From: a virus
Lineage: Duplodnaviria > Heunggongvirae > Uroviricota > Caudoviricetes
Length of the DNA: 35,061 nucleotides
Reading direction: 5' to 3' (one strand)
IMG/VR virus record: IMGVR_UViG_2654587570_000013
Span: 1 to 35,061 of that record
A model generated the notes under the pieces. The model was not told where the DNA came from. It ran no database searches and saw only the letters and a list, made by a program, of their open reading frames with translations. Of the stretch, positions 25,694 through 34,456 are shown one piece after another. The translations under genes were made by a program, and so were the position numbers. Every line of letters starts with the position of its first letter. The first letter of the stretch is position 1.

Positions 25694-27601
25694 TTAGAAC
25701 GATGTTACCCAACTACGGCCTCTATTTGGAGGTCTGACGATGTTTTGACGTTGCGGTCGTGTGATTGGCTTAGTTTCTTCGATTTGCTCGTTAGATTGCG
25801 ATTTAGGAGCTTTTACGGGTTCTTCGACAACGCGGTTTAAGCTGTCTTTCATTGCAATGAGTTTATCCCATGACATTTTTGAAAGGACGTAGCGAGAAGC
25901 CGCATAGCTATAAACCAGACAGTCGAGAGCCTCGTTTCGGGTACTACCTGGATTTTTCACCCAACGCACGCCAGTAGTAGTACGCTTGATGGATTCACTC
26001 AAAAGCTGATCGAGATAATCATCAGGAACGGTTTCTGATATCTCTAAACCAATATGAGGATTGTCTTTCAGGTTTCTAACCAGCATTTCACGAACAGCAG
26101 ATTTACCAACGTTAACACCCAGCATAAGCAATTCATGACCACCTGTGCGGGTAGGTTTAACCGGAATCACTGGAGCATTACCAGATGAACTACCTTTGAT
26201 CGCGTGTAGGTTCTTCCACTTACCGCAAATACGGTATCCGGCTTGAGTGAATCGACCGTTCGATGTATCAAGGAAGCTGGCGAGCATAGGAACACGATCA
26301 CCCGATACAGTAGTAAATTTGGTTTTATGGAAGTTGATTAATCTATCCCATACAGGGGATTCATATCGTTCACAGTTATGATCGTAAAAGCTGCGGTGAT
26401 CCAGAATGTAAACCTTATCTTTCGCTACACCTAAGATGGTAGTTTCTGCGCGATCTAATTGCTGGTCAGTACCCGCACATAAGAAAATCACGTCATCAGG
26501 GATATTCTCGATAGAAACATCTGTTTTGAGTTGTTCCAGTTCATTTGCTTCTACTGCCGTGTCCTGATCGTCGTATACCTTGCCTAACACGGTGTTAAAA
26601 AAGGATTGTAAATCAAAGGATTGCCACGCATGACTAAAATCAACCACACAAGCGCGAATCGTGCTGAAAGGTGAATACAGACGACTGATCCAGAATCCTG
26701 CTACCTCACTTTCACGGGTTGCTCTCCACTCTCCTTGTGCTACTGCCCTGATTCGTTCCCCTTCTGTCCATGCGTTCTTACAGTGGGGGCAAATATAACG
26801 AGCGGTATCAGGATCGGGTAAGTTCTTACCATCAATGTTACGCCATTCAAATTGAACGTTTTCCCACTCGATCACCTGGTGTCTACCGCAATGAGGACAC
26901 GGAACAAAAAACATACGCATATCGCTTGATAACCATTGCTGGTTAATGCTTCCCAGCTTACTGGTCGGGGTACTGGATACGACTAATCGACCTTCATCGC
27001 CAAAGGTAGTTAAACGGTTAGCAGCCAGTGCCACCGGATCACCTTCTTCTGAGGCTGTGGCAGCATCAATTTCGTCAAGTAATCCAACCTTTGCGGTCTT
27101 ACCACGTAGGGTTGATGGGCTGGTAAGCGATACCATGTACAGGAAGTGATTCGTTTTTAACTGGAGTTGGTTGTTGTTGTTAACCGCGTTGCGATCATTC
27201 TTGTCTGTAACCACGTCTTTCAATGCATCACATGCTTCGATAGACGGTCGGATCTTACCCGCGAGATATTGAGACATTTCTTTAGCGGTTGATTGTCCGA
27301 TAATCATATTGCATGGATCGTTAGCCATCTGGTTAAACAGGATACCGTTTAGGATGGTAGTTTTTCCGATCTGCGCACTGGTCATCAGTACATACTTTTT
27401 CTTATTCTCAAGGAAAGGAGCATCAATCATGCCTTTCTGGAATGACAGCAATTTAACTTTATCCCCCGCTTGAGGACCATCTACCAGCACCATATTCGCT
27501 TCGCACCATTCAGACGGAAGGAGCTTAGGCGGTGGAGTGATATATTTTGCGGCATTTTTAAGAATCTTTTTTAATTTTGCCTTATTAGAAATCAGTTTCA
27601 T
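25694..27601 (-). CDS. terminase large subunit (lambda gpA family)
   Basis: 635 aa; Walker A-like SAQIGKTT; VPCPHCG zinc motif; C-terminal [14 protein letters not shown] resembles lambda gpA RNEALDCFVYALAA as recalled; GAGGGT SD; first gene of the leftward operon. Confidence 0.9.
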
Positions 27602-27688: not shown

Positions 27689-28285
27689 ATGCTAATTAAT
27701 CAGCAAGAAAGAGATGAATTAGCCTTGTCTTGTACCGATCATGAATATCGTTTACCCGTTAAGCATAAGCATTTAAAAACCGATTACACAACATCTGGGT
27801 TTAGCCGTGAGGAAGCGAAAGAGATTTTAATAGAATTTTACCGTGATAATGGCTATAGAGACGTTCATAACTTCTTTAAGAAGCATCGCACATCACAGAC
27901 AGAGTTTCAGCGAGTCCGTGAGTGGTTTGATTTTGATATCAAGCGTTATTATCGCATTGATGACGGTCCTATCTATCGGTTGCAGTGGAAGCCGATCAGG
28001 GAAGTGTTGAAACAGAAGAGATTGAATCACGCAATTACACGCTATCGTAACGAGGCTTTCAAGAAAGGCTATGGTGATACAAGGGAACTATTCGTTGAAC
28101 TCGCTAACGTGAAGTACAGCCACTATTACAACGATCCTAAAGGGTTCTTTGAAGTGCTTCGCAAGGTTGATATAAGTCGGGGTACATATTATTCACGGTT
28201 GAAGAAGTACGGGATTAAGGCAGAGTTCTTTATGTCGGTTGACGATGGAGAACTTTTTCCGATAAAATGTAAGTCCTCTAAATAA
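27689..28285 (+). CDS. protein with two copies of a small HTH-like module (putative DNA-binding regulator)
   Basis: 198 aa; AAGGAGGG SD; two internal segments ([17 protein letters not shown]...FFKK and [17 protein letters not shown]) match the module found in the two small downstream proteins. Confidence 0.5.
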
Positions 28286-28314
28286 AGGTGAACATTCACT
28301 TTAATTTGGAGAAA

Positions 28315-28548
28315 ATGACTATGACTACTAAAGCTACTCGCGGTCGCCCTACCCGTTTTAATCGTGAACAGATGGCTGATATTGCCTACGCTTACTATAC
28401 AGCGGATCGTGGTAAGGAAGCGAAAGAACAGATTCTTAGTGAACATGGGATCTCAATCGCCCAATTCTATAAGAATATGAAGAAGTTAGACATTAAATTC
28501 TATGTTCAGATCGGTGATGGTCAGATCGTAGAAGCAACAGGTTTTTGA
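28315..28548 (+). CDS. small HTH-like DNA-binding protein (paralogue family)
   Basis: Start placed at ATG 28315 after GGAG; the ORF track starts at a GTG at 28288. RGRPTRFNREQMADIAYAYY ... GISIAQFYKNMKKLDI parallels the 31655 protein. Confidence 0.5.
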   Translation: MTMTTKATRGRPTRFNREQMADIAYAYYTADRGKEAKEQILSEHGISIAQFYKNMKKLDIKFYVQIGDGQIVEATGF

Positions 28549-30394: not shown

Positions 30395-30967
30395 AGTGGT
30401 ATCCTCTAAAAGAAAGTGAATCAAACAAATTACACTAGTATTTATACGAGAAAAAAATATCTATTTGGAAGTGATTGGATTCAGTCGGCTTCGCCTCCTT
30501 CATGATTTTGATTAAATCATCATCAAAACGAAGGAGTATCTTTAGAATATAAGAATCTTTCTTTTGGAGAAATAATAATCAGGAAGCAATTTGGCAACCG
30601 AAGGTTGCAATCCCGAAGGGATACCAATACCTTTCTAGAAAGTGATTGTTACTCACTTCGTTCGTTTACTAGAATCAGTTAGTAACTAGCATTAAATCCC
30701 TTTCTAAGAAAATCCTTTCAAAAGTGAGTGAACGCCGTAGGCGTGAACGTGAGCGAAGCGAACTATCCAATCCCTTTCGAATCCTGCTTGCAGGTCTTAG
30801 AAGGTGTTGATGGGCGCTTCGCGCACGGCTACGCCGTATTCTTTTTGCGAGATCTTTCTTGAACGTAGTGAGAGAAAACGAGCAAAAAGGAGAACGTTAG
30901 TTCGAATTTTATATTCTATGGTCTGTGGGGTGAAATGTTTTTCAAGATCATACACTTATGAGATTGA

Positions 30968-31090
30968 AGTGTAGGGTTAGTGTAGGTGTGTAGGTTTCAT
31001 AGTGTAGGTTTGAGGGTGTTATAGTGTAGGTTTACTGGCTAGTGTAGTGTAGGCCAATCCCTTTAAAGTGTAGGTTTGTAGTGTAGGGTT
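30968..31090 (+). repeat. array of ~9 direct GTGTAGG(T/G)TT repeats (iteron-like)
   Basis: Copies start at 30969, 30980, 30988, 31002, 31024, 31047, 31068 and 31081, plus a degenerate copy at 31042; all same orientation with irregular 8-23 bp spacing, inside a 1.2-kb ORF-free region. Confidence 0.6.
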
Positions 31091-31284
31091 TTCATCAAAA
31101 ATTTTGATAGAAAATTCTTGTATATTATTTAATCAGAAAATCACCAAAAATCGCGGTAACTGCATGATTTAAAAGGAATGGTCAAAAGGTCACCGTGCTA
31201 TAATAGGTTATAAAGGTTGATAATCGTTATCCGCCATTTTCACACAAAAATTTTGATAGTCTTTTCTCGTTTAGGTCAAGTGTA

Positions 31285-31313
31285 TTGACAACTGTCAAGG
31301 ATTATTTTATACT
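31285..31313 (+). promoter_or_regulatory. near-consensus sigma70 promoter (rightward) with overlapping palindromic operator-like site
   Basis: TTGACA - 17 nt - TATACT; the -35 element is part of the palindrome TTGACA-ac-TGTCAA. Confidence 0.5.
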
Positions 31314-31654
31314 TTTTATCGCTGGTGGGGGTTGAAATTTTCTAAACAGCCCCCATATAGATGATAAGCAAGATTTTTCGTGTATAAATACATGCATGAA
31401 ATGATTGTTCACTTCTGAAAATCCCCTGATTCACTGTTAACACATACAGCACTGGTTAAACACACAGTGCTTTTTCGATTAAATAATGTACGAAATGATT
31501 AATTATTAATCTTCTCTTTAGCAATTCGTGCTCCCACTGATCGGATATACAGTGGTTTTACAGGGTTTTCTGAAATGACTTTTATAAATAGAAGTATCGA
31601 GGGCGAAAAGCTCTTTTTATTGTCCTTATTAATCCACATTTGAGGAATCTACTT

Positions 31655-31834
31655 ATGGCTAGACCTGTTAAGTTTACTCGTGAAATGATTGTTGATATTG
31701 CTAAACGCTTTTATGGCGATACTGAACGAGGCGGCGAGAATTTCTTTAAGAAGGAAGGAATTGATAGAAGCGGATTCTATAAGTTAATGAAGAAATACGA
31801 AATTCAGATAAAGATTAACGTTCAAGTTTGTTAA
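31655..31834 (+). CDS. small HTH-like DNA-binding protein (paralogue family)
   Basis: Start placed at MARPVKF, which has a TGAGGA SD; the ORF track starts at 31640. ARPVKFTREMIVDIAKRFY ... GFYKLMKKYEI parallels the 28315 protein. Confidence 0.5.
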   Translation: MARPVKFTREMIVDIAKRFYGDTERGGENFFKKEGIDRSGFYKLMKKYEIQIKINVQVC

Positions 31835-31950: not shown

Positions 31951-32946
31951 ATGAAAAATTCTAAGCGCATCACCTTCAACCTGTTTATTAAATCCAACGG
32001 CAAACTGAACATTACCGTCATGGAAGGTAAAGCAAGCAAACAAGACAAATCCTTTGAAGTAGTATCCGGTAAGACTCTGACCGAAATGCGTCAGAATGCT
32101 GGCATCAAAGACGGTGCTGAATGGCAGATCACTAACCGTTTCGACAAACGTCACGTTAAACCTACACTGGTAGAAGGTGAATCCGTTTATTGCTTCGCTC
32201 GTGCTGTTAAAGCCGATGAAACTTACTATCTCGCTGTTGTTAAAACTGCTTCCGGCTTCCGTGCTGTAATGCATCACAAGAGCAAGCGTAACGAATACGG
32301 CGTAGAGACCCAGGAAGTCGCAAAACGCTTCCGTACTGTTGCTACCGAATCCACTGTAAAGGATGTTTCTGGTACTGTTAACACCGCTAAAGGCGGTTCC
32401 TTCTACAACCACGCATTACAGGTTACTTCCTCCTTCTTCTGCAAAAAAGAAGCACAGAAAGAAGTTTCTCCGGTAGTAGTTGAAGAAGTTAAAGAAGAAG
32501 TTGCAGTGGTTGAATCTTCCGAAGTTGAAGCACTGAAAGCACGCATTGCTGAACTGGAAGCTGAAAACGCATCTCTGAAAGCTGAACTGGCAGCACAGGA
32601 AACCACTTTCGAAGTAGCAGCGGTTGAAGTTGAAGCAGTTGAAGAAAAATCCATTGATGAAGAACTGGAAGAACTCCTTAACTATCGCTGGGGTGTTGTT
32701 GCAGAAGTAGAACAAGAAGTTGCTCCGGTAGTTGTTCCGGTTGAAGTTGAAAAAGAATCCGCACCTGTTACTAACTTTGAATCCCTGCGCAATAACTTTA
32801 TGGCTAAATTCAAAACCACTTGGGAAGATACCGAAGAAGAACAAGAAGAGATTGAAGTAAACGAAGACGAGATCCGCGAAGCACAGATGGCACTGCATGA
32901 CGCTATCTACGACACCAACTACAGCGCCTACGCATACGCAGCTTAA
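31951..32946 (+). CDS. abundant acidic coiled-coil protein of unknown function (early region)
   Basis: 331 aa; globular N-terminal ~170 aa followed by a Glu/Val/Ala-rich coiled-coil and acidic tail; very strong optimal-codon bias (cgt, ctg, ggt, gaa); AGGAG SD. Confidence 0.7.
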   Translation: MKNSKRITFNLFIKSNGKLNITVMEGKASKQDKSFEVVSGKTLTEMRQNAGIKDGAEWQITNRFDKRHVKPTLVEGESVYCFARAVKADETYYLAVVKTASGFRAVMHHKSKRNEYGVETQEVAKRFRTVATESTVKDVSGTVNTAKGGSFYNHALQVTSSFFCKKEAQKEVSPVVVEEVKEEVAVVESSEVEALKARIAELEAENASLKAELAAQETTFEVAAVEVEAVEEKSIDEELEELLNYRWGVVAEVEQEVAPVVVPVEVEKESAPVTNFESLRNNFMAKFKTTWEDTEEEQEEIEVNEDEIREAQMALHDAIYDTNYSAYAYAA

Positions 32947-32961
32947 TAGAGGGGTGAATCT

Positions 32962-33204
32962 ATGATGAATCAAAACAAAGAATTTCTGGGTAATCTGATG
33001 TTAGAAATTACCAAAATGAAAGAAAGAATGGTAGCGATGGAATCAGAGATTAAAACTCTTAAAGCTGATAATAAGGCGTTGAGAAAGTCCTTAAAGCTGA
33101 TTGATGAGACTAATGCGGTTATGATGGATCATGTATTCCCTGAGTGGCGAAATGAAACTAAACCTACACAACATAAGAAACTTACACTTCGAATTGTTGC
33201 ATAA
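32962..33204 (+). CDS. small coiled-coil protein
   Basis: 80 aa; AGAGGGG SD; heptad-like pattern (MKERMVAMESEIKTLKADNKALRKSLK). Confidence 0.5.
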   Translation: MMNQNKEFLGNLMLEITKMKERMVAMESEIKTLKADNKALRKSLKLIDETNAVMMDHVFPEWRNETKPTQHKKLTLRIVA

Positions 33205-33904: not shown

Positions 33905-34456
33905 TTAAGACACATCAAATTCATCGTCTTCTTCTGGTTCTTGTTCCGGTTCATCCATTAATGGTAATTCTTCTTCCTCGTCTTCTCCTAAATCCGCATT
34001 TTCGAACAAGTCCCCTACTTCATTTAAACGACGCTCGATGATCTCCCTTAGCTTATTCTTCAATGTTTTCTGGTCGGTGGCAGATTCAAGAATTTCTAAA
34101 GCGTCGATTGTGGCGATCTGCAAAATAGTCTGTTTCACCTTCCCGCAATATTCCGCTAGTTCCTGCTCAACATACCCGACCGGAATCAGGAGGTTCATTG
34201 CTTCCTGGTTCTCTCGTTCGGCTGCATCTGCTAATGCTCTCTCACGGCGTAATTTCTCTACGTCGATTTGTTCCTTGACAGTAGTTTCCCTGAGTGGACT
34301 GATGATATTTTTTGCTACCCACTCGGTCCCCTCTTTGAGTGGCACGCGGCGGGTATTGGTATTGTAAGGTAGTCCCCTTTCTAACCATTTCTTAGCGGCG
34401 TTAATTGTATAGCCGTATAAGCGGGAAATTTCTGTAAGGGTTAATTCTTCTTTCAT
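33905..34456 (-). CDS. HTH DNA-binding protein with acidic C-terminal tail (Nu1/terminase-small-subunit-like N-terminus; alternatively a regulator)
   Basis: 183 aa; N-terminal LTLTEISRLYGYTINAAKKWLERGLPY resembles the Nu1-type HTH; central coiled coil; DEEEELPLMDEPEQEPEEDDEFD tail. Confidence 0.5.
   Translation of the reverse strand: MKEELTLTEISRLYGYTINAAKKWLERGLPYNTNTRRVPLKEGTEWVAKNIISPLRETTVKEQIDVEKLRRERALADAAERENQEAMNLLIPVGYVEQELAEYCGKVKQTILQIATIDALEILESATDQKTLKNKLREIIERRLNEVGDLFENADLGEDEEEELPLMDEPEQEPEEDDEFDVS

What the first reader, a model, noticed from the sequence alone, without database searches (positions are those of the whole stretch)
30968..31090. Array of about nine GTGTAGGTT direct repeats in an ORF-free control region
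An 8-mer core GTGTAGG(T/G)T recurs about nine times in the same orientation within 123 bp, with irregular spacing. It sits between divergent early promoters. This is the architecture of iterons at a replication origin or of a multi-site binding array for a phage DNA-binding protein. It is not CRISPR-like: the units are too short and there are no uniform spacers. No replication initiator is recognisable nearby, so the binding partner is unknown.
Basis: seen in the sequence. Interest (0 to 1): 0.7.

Follow-up and report, generated by a model that had tools for sequence, protein, structure and literature searches.

The report
Iteron-like repeat array, E. coli prophage
The cluster of GTGTAGG repeats is real and is very probably the docking platform for a neighbouring protein of a completely uncharacterised family in an E. 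coli prophage, most likely marking the phage's replication origin; related prophages carry different repeats, always matched to a different version of that protein.

Summary
There are eight full GTGTAGG copies and one truncated copy, all on the + strand, at 30968-31090, inside a 1.2-kb ORF-free stretch of a ~35-kb temperate E. coli prophage.

New result: 33 related loci carry an array at the same position, but with five different motifs:
- A: GTGTAGG
- B: TTCAGGGGCAAA
- C: CGGGGA
- D: TTGTACA plus CCGGGGA
- E: AGTGCAGGG

Motif type matches, without exception, the type of an orphan 313-371-aa protein encoded 0.9 kb to the right (here 31951-32946, "p331"). A 43%-identical homologue goes with a one-base-different motif.

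In every type the copies are phased at 10.2-11.3 bp. In types A, C and D the array abuts the most AT-rich 40-mer of the intergenic region. p331 has a basic N-terminal half, a coiled coil and a very acidic tail. It has no sequence or fold match anywhere.

Best reading (about 0.5): an iteron-type origin and autoregulatory platform with p331 as a new kind of initiator. Main rival (about 0.3): an operator array of a type-specific regulator. Binding and origin activity are inferred, not shown.

The parts
30968..31090 (+). Array of 8 full copies and 1 truncated copy of (A)GTGTAGG(K)T(T), all direct. GTGTAGG starts at 30969, 30980, 30988, 31002, 31024, 31047, 31068 and 31081; the truncated copy starts at 31042.
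   Evidence: Conserved in all type-A relatives. Copy number varies from 6 to 10, and L015 has a 22-bp repeat-to-repeat deletion.
31094..31133 (.). AT-rich block (87.5% A+T) that starts 4 bp after the array. It contains the near-palindrome ATCAAAAATTTTGAT. Proposed DNA-unwinding region.
   Evidence: It is the most AT-rich 40-mer of the 1.2-1.6-kb intergenic region in types A, C and D, and starts 6-12 bp after the last copy in each. It falls in the top 0.06% of 40-mers of the window. The unwinding role is inferred.
31951..32946 (+). p331, an orphan 331-aa protein and the proposed cognate binder and initiator. The N-terminal 170 aa are basic (pI 9.8, net +13). A coiled coil spans roughly 188-230. 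The remainder is acidic (pI 4.1, net -33). The protein ends ...NYSAYAYAA.
   Evidence: Present in every GTGTAGG locus and in no other locus. The motif follows its divergence. No Pfam, PHROG, NCBIfam, PADLOC or PDB match. Only 5 representatives in a library of 1.8 billion proteins. Charge figures are and the model.
32962..33204 (+). p80, an 80-aa coiled-coil protein ending TLRIVA. It is co-inherited with p331. [quoted passage not shown]
   Evidence: The related E-type motif goes with a p331 homologue but with a different second gene, so p80 is the less likely binder.
32159..32167 (-). Isolated inverted copy of GTGTAGGTT inside the p331 gene.
   Evidence: It sits at the same relative place in six type-A loci. 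Its function is unknown. Type B has no equivalent copy inside its own gene.
33161..33169 (-). Isolated inverted copy of GTGTAGGTT inside the p80 gene.
31196..31204 (+). Extended -10 promoter-like element TGcTATAAT, about 105 bp to the right of the array.
   Evidence: Read from the sequence. The equivalent TGcTATAAT promoter in type-B loci and in L027 has a GTGTAGG copy in or against it.
31285..31313 (+). Promoter-like site TTGACA-17-TATACT (11/12) facing the p59-p331-p80 genes.
   Evidence: It is conserved in types A, C and D. In L029, L031 and L032 single cognate motif copies lie 15-85 bp upstream of the equivalent promoter or shortly downstream of it (about 15-90 bp).
30906..30934 (-). Weak leftward promoter-like site (TTCACC-17-TAAAAT, 9/12), 35 bp to the left of the array.
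   Evidence: This is a consensus match only.
31434..31553 (+). Three LexA-box-like sites (CTG-N10-CAG) in the leader of the p59-p331-p80 operon: 31434-31449, 31451-31468 and 31536-31553.
   Evidence: 31434-31449 is the only exact CTGT-N8-ACAG in the window. Three of the four near-matches in the window lie within these 120 bp. The sites are conserved in all loci that carry this leader variant. LexA binding is inferred.
31655..31834 (+). p59, a small HTH-like protein and the first gene of the rightward operon. It is part of the surroundings but is not the specific partner of the array.
   Evidence: The type-A array and p331 occur with either p59 variant: 97-100% or 53-54% identity to the window's p59.

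Best explanation
The array is the cognate multi-site DNA-binding platform of p331 (31951-32946). The proposed mechanism has five steps.
1. The basic N-terminal domain of p331 reads the asymmetric 9-11-bp unit tAGTGTAGGtTT.
2. Its coiled coil joins the bound copies, which lie on one face of the helix, into one nucleoprotein complex.
3. That complex destabilises the abutting 40-bp AT-rich block (31094-31133).
4. The acidic C-terminal part recruits host replication proteins.
5. The array therefore works as an iteron-type origin of the phage, and promoter-proximal copies (seen in relatives) feed back on transcription of the initiator operon.

Basis of each element:
- Shown by comparison: the array-protein pairing, the phasing, the AT-rich neighbour, and the early, possibly SOS-controlled operon position.
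- Inferred only: physical binding, strand opening, host-factor recruitment and origin activity.
For: 1. Exclusive pairing. There are 33 loci: 16 type A, 13 type B, 2 type C, 1 type D and 1 type E. Each has an array at the same position and a matching protein type, with no mismatched pair.
2. The pairing survives exchange of the DNA between the two parts. Five type-A loci carry a B-type p59 patch; in the one locus aligned (L015) that patch is 97.7% identical to a type-B locus. Two type-B loci carry the A-type leader. Types A, C and D share the roughly 560 bp between the array and p59.
3. Graded covariation. Homologues with 77-81% N-terminal identity keep GTGTAGG although flanks and copy spacing change. 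The 43%-identical homologue has AGTGCAGGG.
4. Other neighbours do not covary: p198, p86, Rha, p162, p59 and the TerS-like protein.
5. In every motif type sampled (nine arrays from eight further loci and the window) the copies are phased at 10.2-11.3 bp, with R = 0.58-0.99. Steps of 21-23 bp are frequent, as in plasmid iterons (established knowledge).
6. The most AT-rich 40-mer of the intergenic region starts 6-12 bp after the array in types A, C and D.
7. p331 is bipartite: basic N-terminus, coiled coil, very acidic C-terminus. This layout is like lambda O (from memory).
8. No other replication gene is recognisable in the 35-kb phage, so an initiator must be among these orphans.
9. The operon's leader has three conserved LexA-box-like sites. 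That fits an induced lytic function rather than a maintenance repressor.
Against: - There is no direct evidence of binding or of origin activity.
- No convincing DnaA boxes or IHF sites were seen, and the DnaA-like 9-mers are not conserved (by eye).
- The phage encodes no helicase, loader or primase.
- The module is absent from 72,556 plasmids, so nothing shows that it can act as a replicon.
- The repeat units are shorter (9-11 bp) and less evenly spaced than classical 17-22-bp iterons.
- In type B the AT-richest block lies about 80 bp away, beyond a promoter.
- Single motif copies inside or next to promoters in relatives fit a purely regulatory role equally well.
- Types C and D have two proteins and two arrays, which is unusual for an origin.
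Confidence: 0.5

Rival explanations
1. The array is an operator array, not an origin. p331 is a type-specific transcription regulator: an immunity-type repressor, or an early activator or silencer. It oligomerises over the array and controls the flanking leftward (p162/Rha) and rightward (p59-p331-p80) promoters. On this view the five motif types are heteroimmune or regulatory specificity classes.
For: - Swapped protein and site cassettes are typical of phage immunity regions (established knowledge).
- The phage has no recognisable repressor.
- In relatives, single cognate copies sit against or inside the rightward promoter or next to it. Examples: GTGTAGGgcTATAAT in L027; one copy upstream and two just downstream of the promoter in L029; one copy ending 15 bp upstream of the -35 in L031.
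- Type-B promoters carry a GTGTAGG copy in their spacer.
- P2-type repressors bind direct repeats two helical turns apart (from memory).
Against: - Eight to sixteen phased copies are far more than promoter occlusion needs.
- In the window the array ends about 105 bp and 195 bp upstream of the two rightward promoter-like sites and overlaps neither.
- The gene lies in an operon whose leader holds LexA-box-like sites and terminator-like hairpins. That is expected for an induced lytic function, not for a repressor made in lysogens.
- p331 has no HTH or peptidase domain.
- The very acidic 160-aa tail is unexplained by this model.
- A separate near-palindrome and promoter module lies next to the array and is exchanged independently of it, so it is another candidate for the switch.
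Confidence: 0.3
2. The array is a centromere-like or DNA-organising site. p331 acts as an adaptor in the manner of ParR, omega or TubR: it coats a phased array and tethers, pairs or positions phage DNA during lytic growth or packaging.
For: Phased short direct repeats, a coiled-coil oligomeriser and a nearby autoregulated promoter resemble parC/ParR-type centromeres (from memory). Phasing is shown and the coiled coil.
Against: - There is no ParA, ParM or TubZ-type NTPase in the window.
- The element is an integrating prophage with a serine integrase.
- It is not found on plasmids.
- The array does not covary with the small-terminase-like protein: L011 and L016 share motif type C but have 91% and 55% TerS identity to the window.
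Confidence: 0.07
3. The repeats act at the RNA level, for example as a protein-sponge transcript with repeated UAG/GGA-like motifs, or they are selectively neutral remnants of slippage.
For: - The array lies in a long untranslated region that also holds hairpins and terminator-like sites.
- Repeat number varies by slippage.
Against: - Phasing at about 10.2-11.3 bp in five unrelated motif types points to duplex DNA.
- No Rfam match.
- A + strand terminator-like site (30825-30845) lies upstream, and no convincing promoter reads into the array.
- Strict covariation with a protein and conservation of the copies while flanks diverge argue against neutrality.
Confidence: 0.04

Closest known systems
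Lambda-type origin: ori iterons with the O initiator (lambdoid phages)
   Same: - Several initiator-binding repeats are followed directly by an AT-rich block.
- The initiator is about 300 aa, with an N-terminal DNA-binding part and a C-terminal part for partner recruitment.
- The gene lies in the early rightward operon behind a small regulator.
- The initiator's N-terminal domain and its repeats are exchanged together between related phages.
(The lambda facts are from established knowledge. The features of this locus come.)
   Different: - p331 shows no homology to O; Pfam returned nothing.
- The repeats are asymmetric 9-11-bp direct units, not 19-bp units with internal symmetry.
- There are 8-9 copies here and up to 16 in relatives, rather than 4-6.
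- The array lies 0.9 kb upstream of the gene, not inside it.
- There is no P-like helicase loader.
Iteron plasmid replicons (P1 oriR/RepA, pSC101, F, R6K, RK2)
   Same: - Direct repeats in one orientation at roughly one or two helical turns.
- An adjacent AT-rich region.
- A cognate Rep gene next to the repeats, with repeat copies at its own promoter for autoregulation.
   Different: - No Rep_3 or winged-helix Rep similarity.
- No conserved DnaA boxes.
- The module was not found on any of 72,556 plasmids.
- The units are about half the length of plasmid iterons.
Short-iteron origins of satellites: P4 ori/crr with alpha, and SaPI ori with Rep
   Same: - Short (6-8 bp) specificity repeats at irregular spacing.
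- In types C and D the repeats form two clusters around an AT-rich gap.
- Island- or phage-specific matching of repeat and initiator.
(The facts about P4 and SaPI are from memory.)
   Different: Those initiators are primase-helicase or helicase enzymes. p331 has no NTPase or other enzymatic domain. Type A has one cluster with the AT-rich block at its edge.
Direct-repeat operators of P2-type immunity repressors, and parC/ParR centromeres
   Same: Direct repeats spaced by whole helical turns, with type-specific protein and site pairs. In parC the array is phased and includes the operon promoter.
   Different: - P2-type operators have two half-sites that straddle the promoter, not 8-16 copies upstream of it.
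- ParR needs a ParM motor, which is absent here.

Membership tests
Iteron-type replication origin | Multiple direct repeats in one orientation, spaced in helical register | tested here: met
   Eight full copies and one partial copy, all on the + strand. Best period 11.2 bp, R = 0.65. Periods are 10.2-11.3 bp in all five motif types. The units (9-11 bp) are shorter than classical iterons.
Iteron-type replication origin | AT-rich unwinding region adjacent to the repeats | tested here: met
   The most AT-rich 40-mer of the intergenic region starts 6-12 bp after the array in types A, C and D, and about 80 bp after it in type B. Actual unwinding was not tested.
Iteron-type replication origin | Adjacent gene for a cognate initiator whose specificity matches the repeats | tested here: inconclusive
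   The cognate protein is identified by strict and graded covariation. Nothing shows that it is an initiator: it has no similarity to any Rep, O or DnaA family.
Iteron-type replication origin | Host-factor sites (DnaA boxes, IHF) in the origin | tested here: not met
   Only 1-2-mismatch DnaA-like 9-mers are present, and they are not conserved among relatives. No IHF consensus was found. This was inspection by eye, not a formal scan.
Iteron-type replication origin | Supports initiation of replication in vivo or in vitro | not testable with these tools
   This needs marker-frequency sequencing after induction, or a plasmid origin assay.
Phage repressor/operator (immunity) region | Binding sites overlap the promoters they control | tested here: inconclusive
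   In the window, the array ends about 105 bp and 195 bp upstream of the rightward promoter-like sites and 35 bp from a weak leftward one. In L027, L029, L031, L032 and in type-B loci, single copies lie in, against or near the promoter.
Phage repressor/operator (immunity) region | Repressor with a recognisable DNA-binding domain (HTH/XRE, with or without an S24 peptidase), expressed in the lysogen | tested here: not met
   No such domain in p331 or anywhere in the window. Expression could not be tested. LexA-box-like sites in the operon leader argue for repression in lysogens.
Partition centromere (parC/ParR, omega, TubR types) | Adjacent partition NTPase gene | tested here: not met
   No ParA, ParM or TubZ-like gene in the 35-kb window.
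cosB/pac site bound by small terminase | The repeats match the specificity of the small terminase and lie next to its gene | tested here: not met
   The TerS-like gene lies 2.8 kb away on the other strand. TerS variants (55% versus 89-98% identity) are distributed independently of motif type.
CRISPR array | Repeats of 23 bp or more, separated by unique spacers of uniform length | tested here: not met
   Units are 9-11 bp with gaps of 0-14 bp, and two copies overlap.

The most novel reading that the evidence does not exclude
p331 and its counterparts in types B-E (and possibly the paralogous second proteins of types C, D and E) form a previously unrecognised family of sequence-specific DNA-binding proteins with a new fold. 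They would serve as the replication initiators of a widespread, unstudied group of enterobacterial prophages that lack any known replication or immunity gene. Specificity would be carried by a two-part cassette, array plus N-terminal domain, kept matched across about 0.9 kb of freely exchanged DNA. Foreign-type sites at promoters (type-A sites in type-B phages and the reverse) would let one phage type interfere with another.
Probability: 0.35. Interest if true: 0.65.

Novelty: new variant of a known kind. Interest (0 to 1): 0.55.

Why it matters
This prophage group is present in about 1% of complete E. coli genomes (63 of 5,426 share parts of the region; 18 carry type A). It also occurs in Salmonella and Shigella. 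None of its early genes has an assigned function, and no cultured phage in GenBank carries them.

The array and p331 pairing gives the first experimentally testable handle on how these phages replicate or switch. It offers five natural specificity variants for swap experiments. It would add a new DNA-binding fold and initiator class if confirmed.

In practice, the matched array and protein cassette could be used to type these prophages. Cloned arrays might act as type-specific decoys against them.

Tried and rejected
- **Homology of the region to cultured phages.** Megablast found nothing. Blastn found only a 75-nt patch shared with RB49-group phages.
- **Family and domain searches.** Rfam, tRNA, Pfam, PHROGs, NCBIfam, PADLOC and PDB-sequence searches of p331 and all early proteins found only Rha, the terminases and the integrase.
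- **Wasted or empty searches.** One protein search with the P0125 N-terminus returned nothing. Two word-indexed searches listed only near-identical E. coli proteins. Scans of viral contigs for P0121 and P0125, and of GTDB genomes for the family, found nothing.
- **Pattern scan for GTGTAGG triplets in viral contigs.** Of the 80 stretches fetched (87 matched), 69 encode no relative of any early protein of this prophage, and some come from giant-virus MAGs. Every one of the 11 hits from this phage family had p331.
- **Plasmid search for p331 and its type-B counterpart.** No match.
- **p59, p198/p86 or the TerS-like protein as partner.** Rejected by lack of covariation.
- **sRNA-mRNA pairing between the terminator-like hairpin at 30829-30841 and p331 codons at 32293-32305.** The 13-14-nt complementarity is within the range of shuffles and is absent in other types.
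- **Same-type double lysogens as a test of immunity.** Type A is too rare (18 genomes, one copy each) to be informative.
- **Literature.** Searches found no description of this prophage group.

Full report
**1. The observation**

The sequence at 30968-31090 reads gaAGTGTAGGGTTAGTGTAGGTGTGTAGGTTTcatAGTGTAGGTTTgagggtgttatAGTGTAGGTTTactggctAGTGTAGTGTAGGccaatccctttaaAGTGTAGGTTTgtAGTGTAGGGTT.

- GTGTAGGKT matches six times here, all on the + strand. The whole window has nine matches against 0.21 expected, and no shuffle out of 100 reached nine.
- The 7-mer GTGTAGG adds copies at 30980 and 31047. A truncated copy lies at 31042. That makes eight full copies and one partial copy in 123 bp.
- No ORF of 30 aa or more spans the array.
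- NCBI's annotation of a 97.5%-identical prophage leaves the whole 1.26 kb between two genes empty.
- Rfam and tRNA scans are negative.

**2. Context**

The window is a temperate siphovirus-like prophage of E. coli.

- Large serine integrase: 996-2690.
- Endolysin, tail, head, portal and lambda-GpA-type large terminase genes on the - strand: 2.7-27.6 kb.
- A roughly 7-kb early region of orphans: p198 and p86 (+), Rha and p162 (-), the 1.2-kb gene-free region, p59, p331 and p80 (+), then two small membrane proteins and a Nu1-like small terminase (-).

In E. coli 2014EL-1346-6 the element interrupts hicB. Parts of the region occur in 63 of 5,426 complete E. coli genomes, always on chromosomes. 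The p331 N-terminal coding part occurs in 18 of them, once each. No phage in the GenBank collection has the region, p331, p198 or p162. The best large-terminase match there is 45% identical. No replication gene or repressor is recognisable anywhere in the window.

**3. The key result: motif types swap with one protein**

Twenty-four IMG/VR loci were fetched through the conserved p162 protein. All loci that include the upstream region have a repeat array at the same position and in the same orientation, but with different units.

| Type | Repeat unit | Copies | Loci |
|---|---|---|---|
| A | AGTGTAGGTTT | 6-10 | window and six loci |
| B | TTCAGGGGCAAA | about 9 | 13 loci |
| C | two clusters of CGGGGA-type units | 13-16 | 2 loci |
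| D | CTTGTACAT clusters plus seven CTAATACCGGGGA | | 1 locus |

All early proteins were compared across loci.

- p331 and p80 are present in every type-A locus and in no other locus.
- Types B, C and D carry, at the same place, their own 313-, 337- and 371-aa proteins.
- These proteins are only remotely related to p331. Pairwise E values are 2e-5 to 3e-4. They share an L-x-V-V...G...H-x-S-x-R...G stretch and an FF motif.
- Types C and D add a second 333/363-aa protein. The two second proteins are 29% identical to each other, and both types have CGGGGA-type units.
- A pattern scan of IMG/VR added five more type-A loci of this family, all with p331.

In total there are 33 loci and no mismatched pair.

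**4. The pairing is more than linkage**

- Types A, C and D share the roughly 560 bp between the array and p59. This intervening DNA is demonstrably exchanged.
- L015 is A-like through the array, then carries a patch 97.7% identical to a type-B locus (the end of the leader plus p59), then is A-like again in p331.
- Four further type-A loci have the B-type p59.
- Two type-B loci have the A-type leader.
- p198, p86, Rha, p162 and the TerS-like protein vary independently of motif type.

These mosaics show free exchange of the spacer DNA. They do not by themselves prove selection on the pair.

**5. Graded covariation**

| Locus | p331 homologue | Array |
|---|---|---|
| L027 (Salmonella), L029, L032 | 77-81% identical in the N-terminal domain | keeps GTGTAGG (7-8 copies), although flanks, spacing and promoter region differ |
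| L031 | 43% identical | TTAGTGCAGGG (4 copies plus 1): the same unit with T changed to C in the core |

L031 has a different, full-length second gene instead of p80. The motif therefore follows p331 rather than p80.

**6. Anatomy that bears on mechanism**

*(a) Phasing.* In nine arrays covering all five motif types, the copy positions fit a period of 10.2-11.3 bp with resultant length 0.58-0.99. Nominal Rayleigh p values are 0.002-0.07, uncorrected for the period scan. Steps of 21-23 bp are common. This places the sites on one face of duplex DNA.

*(b) AT-rich neighbour.* The most AT-rich 40-mer of each 1.2-1.6-kb intergenic region (88% A+T) begins 6-12 bp after the last copy in types A, C and D. 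In type B it lies about 80 bp further on, beyond a promoter. In the window it is 31094-31133, in the top 0.06% of all 40-mers.

*(c) Promoters.* Promoter-like sites face p59-p331-p80 at 31196-31204 (TGcTATAAT, by eye) and at 31285-31313 (11/12). In the window no copy overlaps them. Relatives have single cognate copies placed as follows:
- against the -10 (L027);
- one upstream and two just downstream of the promoter (L029);
- one direct and one inverted copy downstream of the promoter (L032);
- ending 15 bp upstream of the -35 (L031).

*(d) The leader.* It has terminator-like hairpins and three CTG-N10-CAG sites, at 31434-31449, 31451-31468 and 31536-31553. They include the only exact CTGT-N8-ACAG of the window. 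Three of the four near-matches in the window lie within 120 bp, where about one is expected for the whole window. The sites are conserved wherever this leader variant occurs, and are closer to the LexA consensus in L027, L029 and L032. LexA binding is an inference.

**7. Interpretation**

That the array is the binding platform of p331 is, in my judgement, about 0.8 likely. It rests on covariation only.

For the function of the complex I favour an iteron-type origin that also feeds back on its own operon (about 0.5). The reasons are:
- many phased, same-sense copies;
- the abutting AT-rich block;
- a lambda-O-like layout of a roughly 330-aa early protein (O's layout is from memory);
- an operon that looks SOS-controlled;
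- the absence of any other candidate replication gene in a phage that must replicate.

Arguments against:
- no homology to any initiator;
- no conserved DnaA or IHF sites;
- no helicase loader;
- short units;
- absence from plasmids;
- the two-protein, two-array layout of types C and D.

The main rival (about 0.3) is a type-specific regulator with an operator array. The promoter-proximal copies and the lack of any recognisable repressor speak for it. The copy number, the distance from the promoters in this window and the LexA-like leader speak against it. Centromere-like, packaging, RNA-level and neutral readings are unlikely: there is no NTPase, no covariation with TerS, the phasing matches duplex DNA, and the copies are conserved while flanks drift.

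**8. Comparison with known systems**

The module works like lambda ori/O, plasmid iteron replicons, and the short-iteron origins of P4 and SaPIs. It is not a member of any of those families by protein homology. Among the origin-defining features, repeat geometry and the AT-rich neighbour are met. The cognate-protein criterion is met only by covariation. Host-factor sites are not met. Activity is untestable here.

I file it as a new variant of a known kind: a specificity-matched repeat array and binding-protein cassette, built on an unrecognised protein family.

**9. Unexplained**

- Type-B loci carry one to three GTGTAGG copies at their own promoter, one of them inside the spacer (TTGACActGTGTAGGatcggtgcTATAAT), although they lack p331.
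- The type-A locus L027 carries two type-B units beside its promoter.
- These may be remnants of recombination between arrays, or sites for cross-regulation between phage types.
- Two inverted GTGTAGGTT copies inside p331 and p80 are conserved in type-A loci. They have no counterpart in type B.

Noticed in passing
window 30507-30584: A 75-nt stretch is about 80% identical to an unannotated intergenic stretch of 57 RB49-group T4-like phages, lying in RB49 itself between hypothetical genes ORF165c and ORF164c. It includes a small hairpin, TTTTGAT-N9-ATCAAAA. It is conserved in all types of this prophage family. RB49 intergenic regions are known for mobile promoter/stem-loop cassettes (PeSLs, PMC2839356). 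Whether this stretch is one was not tested.
   Followed up: partly
window 31434-31449, 31451-31468, 31536-31553: Three LexA-box-like sites (CTG-N10-CAG) cluster in the leader of the p59-p331-p80 operon. They are conserved in every locus with this leader variant and absent from the alternative variant. This suggests SOS control of the operon in one variant only.
   Followed up: partly
window 31219-31231: GATAATCGTTATC (GATAATCATTAT in relatives) matches the 3' two-thirds of the Fur-box consensus as I remember it. It lies just downstream of the TGcTATAAT element at 31196-31204. Seen by eye only.
   Followed up: no
window 30412-31065: A second repeat family, RAAAGKGATT, occurs in both orientations. 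Eight of the 29 matches in the window (at most 1 mismatch) and three of the four exact ones lie in these 650 bp, including one inside the GTGTAGG array (31056-31065). The window total is 29 against 15.2 expected. The motif is present in all array types, so its partner would be a conserved protein or a host factor.
   Followed up: partly
window 31094-31108 and 31244-31258: The near-palindrome ATCAAAAATTTTGAT occurs twice, 150 bp apart, flanking the TGcTATAAT element. In L027 and L031 the same position holds a different palindrome set (GTGCAATTGCAC and GTGCA/TGCAC repeats). This points to a separate, independently swapped operator module. It covaries with neither p59 nor Rha.
   Followed up: partly
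window 30740-30845: A long inverted repeat (GGCGTGAACGTGAGCGAAGCG / CGCTTCGCGCACGGCTACGCC) ends in a + strand terminator-like hairpin with a T-run at 30825-30845, about 130 bp to the left of the array. Other types have differently sequenced but similarly placed GC hairpins with T-runs. This may be a small RNA or an attenuator.
   Followed up: no
window 31517-31533: The 17-mer CTTTAGCAATTCGTGCT is conserved in every leader variant of the family. It is present twice in type-B loci and in L031. Its function is unknown.
   Followed up: no
window 31327-31354: The hairpin GGGGGttgaaattttctaaacagCCCCC lies a few bases downstream of the 31285-31313 promoter. It is conserved (GGGGTTGAAA...CCCCATATA) in all types, including the otherwise different type-B leader.
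   Followed up: no
window 33905-34456 (-) versus 25694-27601 (-): The Nu1-like small-terminase gene (phrog_57, E = 4e-15) is separated from the GpA-type large-terminase gene by the whole 6-kb early region, and sits next to the prophage end. This is unusual for cos phages.
   Followed up: no
window 32920-32946 and 33187-33204; L011, L022: The C-termini ...NYSAYAYAA (p331)...LLDFAA (type C)...VRRAA (type E) and ...TLR(L/I)VA (p80 and the second proteins) resemble ssrA/LVA-type ClpXP degradation tags as I remember them. This suggests unstable proteins. Untested.
   Followed up: no
L004 (type B) promoter region; L027 3190-3245: Foreign-type repeat units sit at promoters. Three GTGTAGG copies lie at the type-B promoter, one of them inside its spacer. 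Two type-B units lie next to the promoter of the type-A locus L027.
   Followed up: partly
window 27689-28548 and 31655-31834: p59, p86 and the C-terminal parts of p198 are paralogous small proteins with a (G)RP-x-K-F-T...GI-x-x-S-x-FYK-x-x-KKY pattern. This resembles resolvase/Hin-type HTH domains (by eye). No library recognises them.
   Followed up: no
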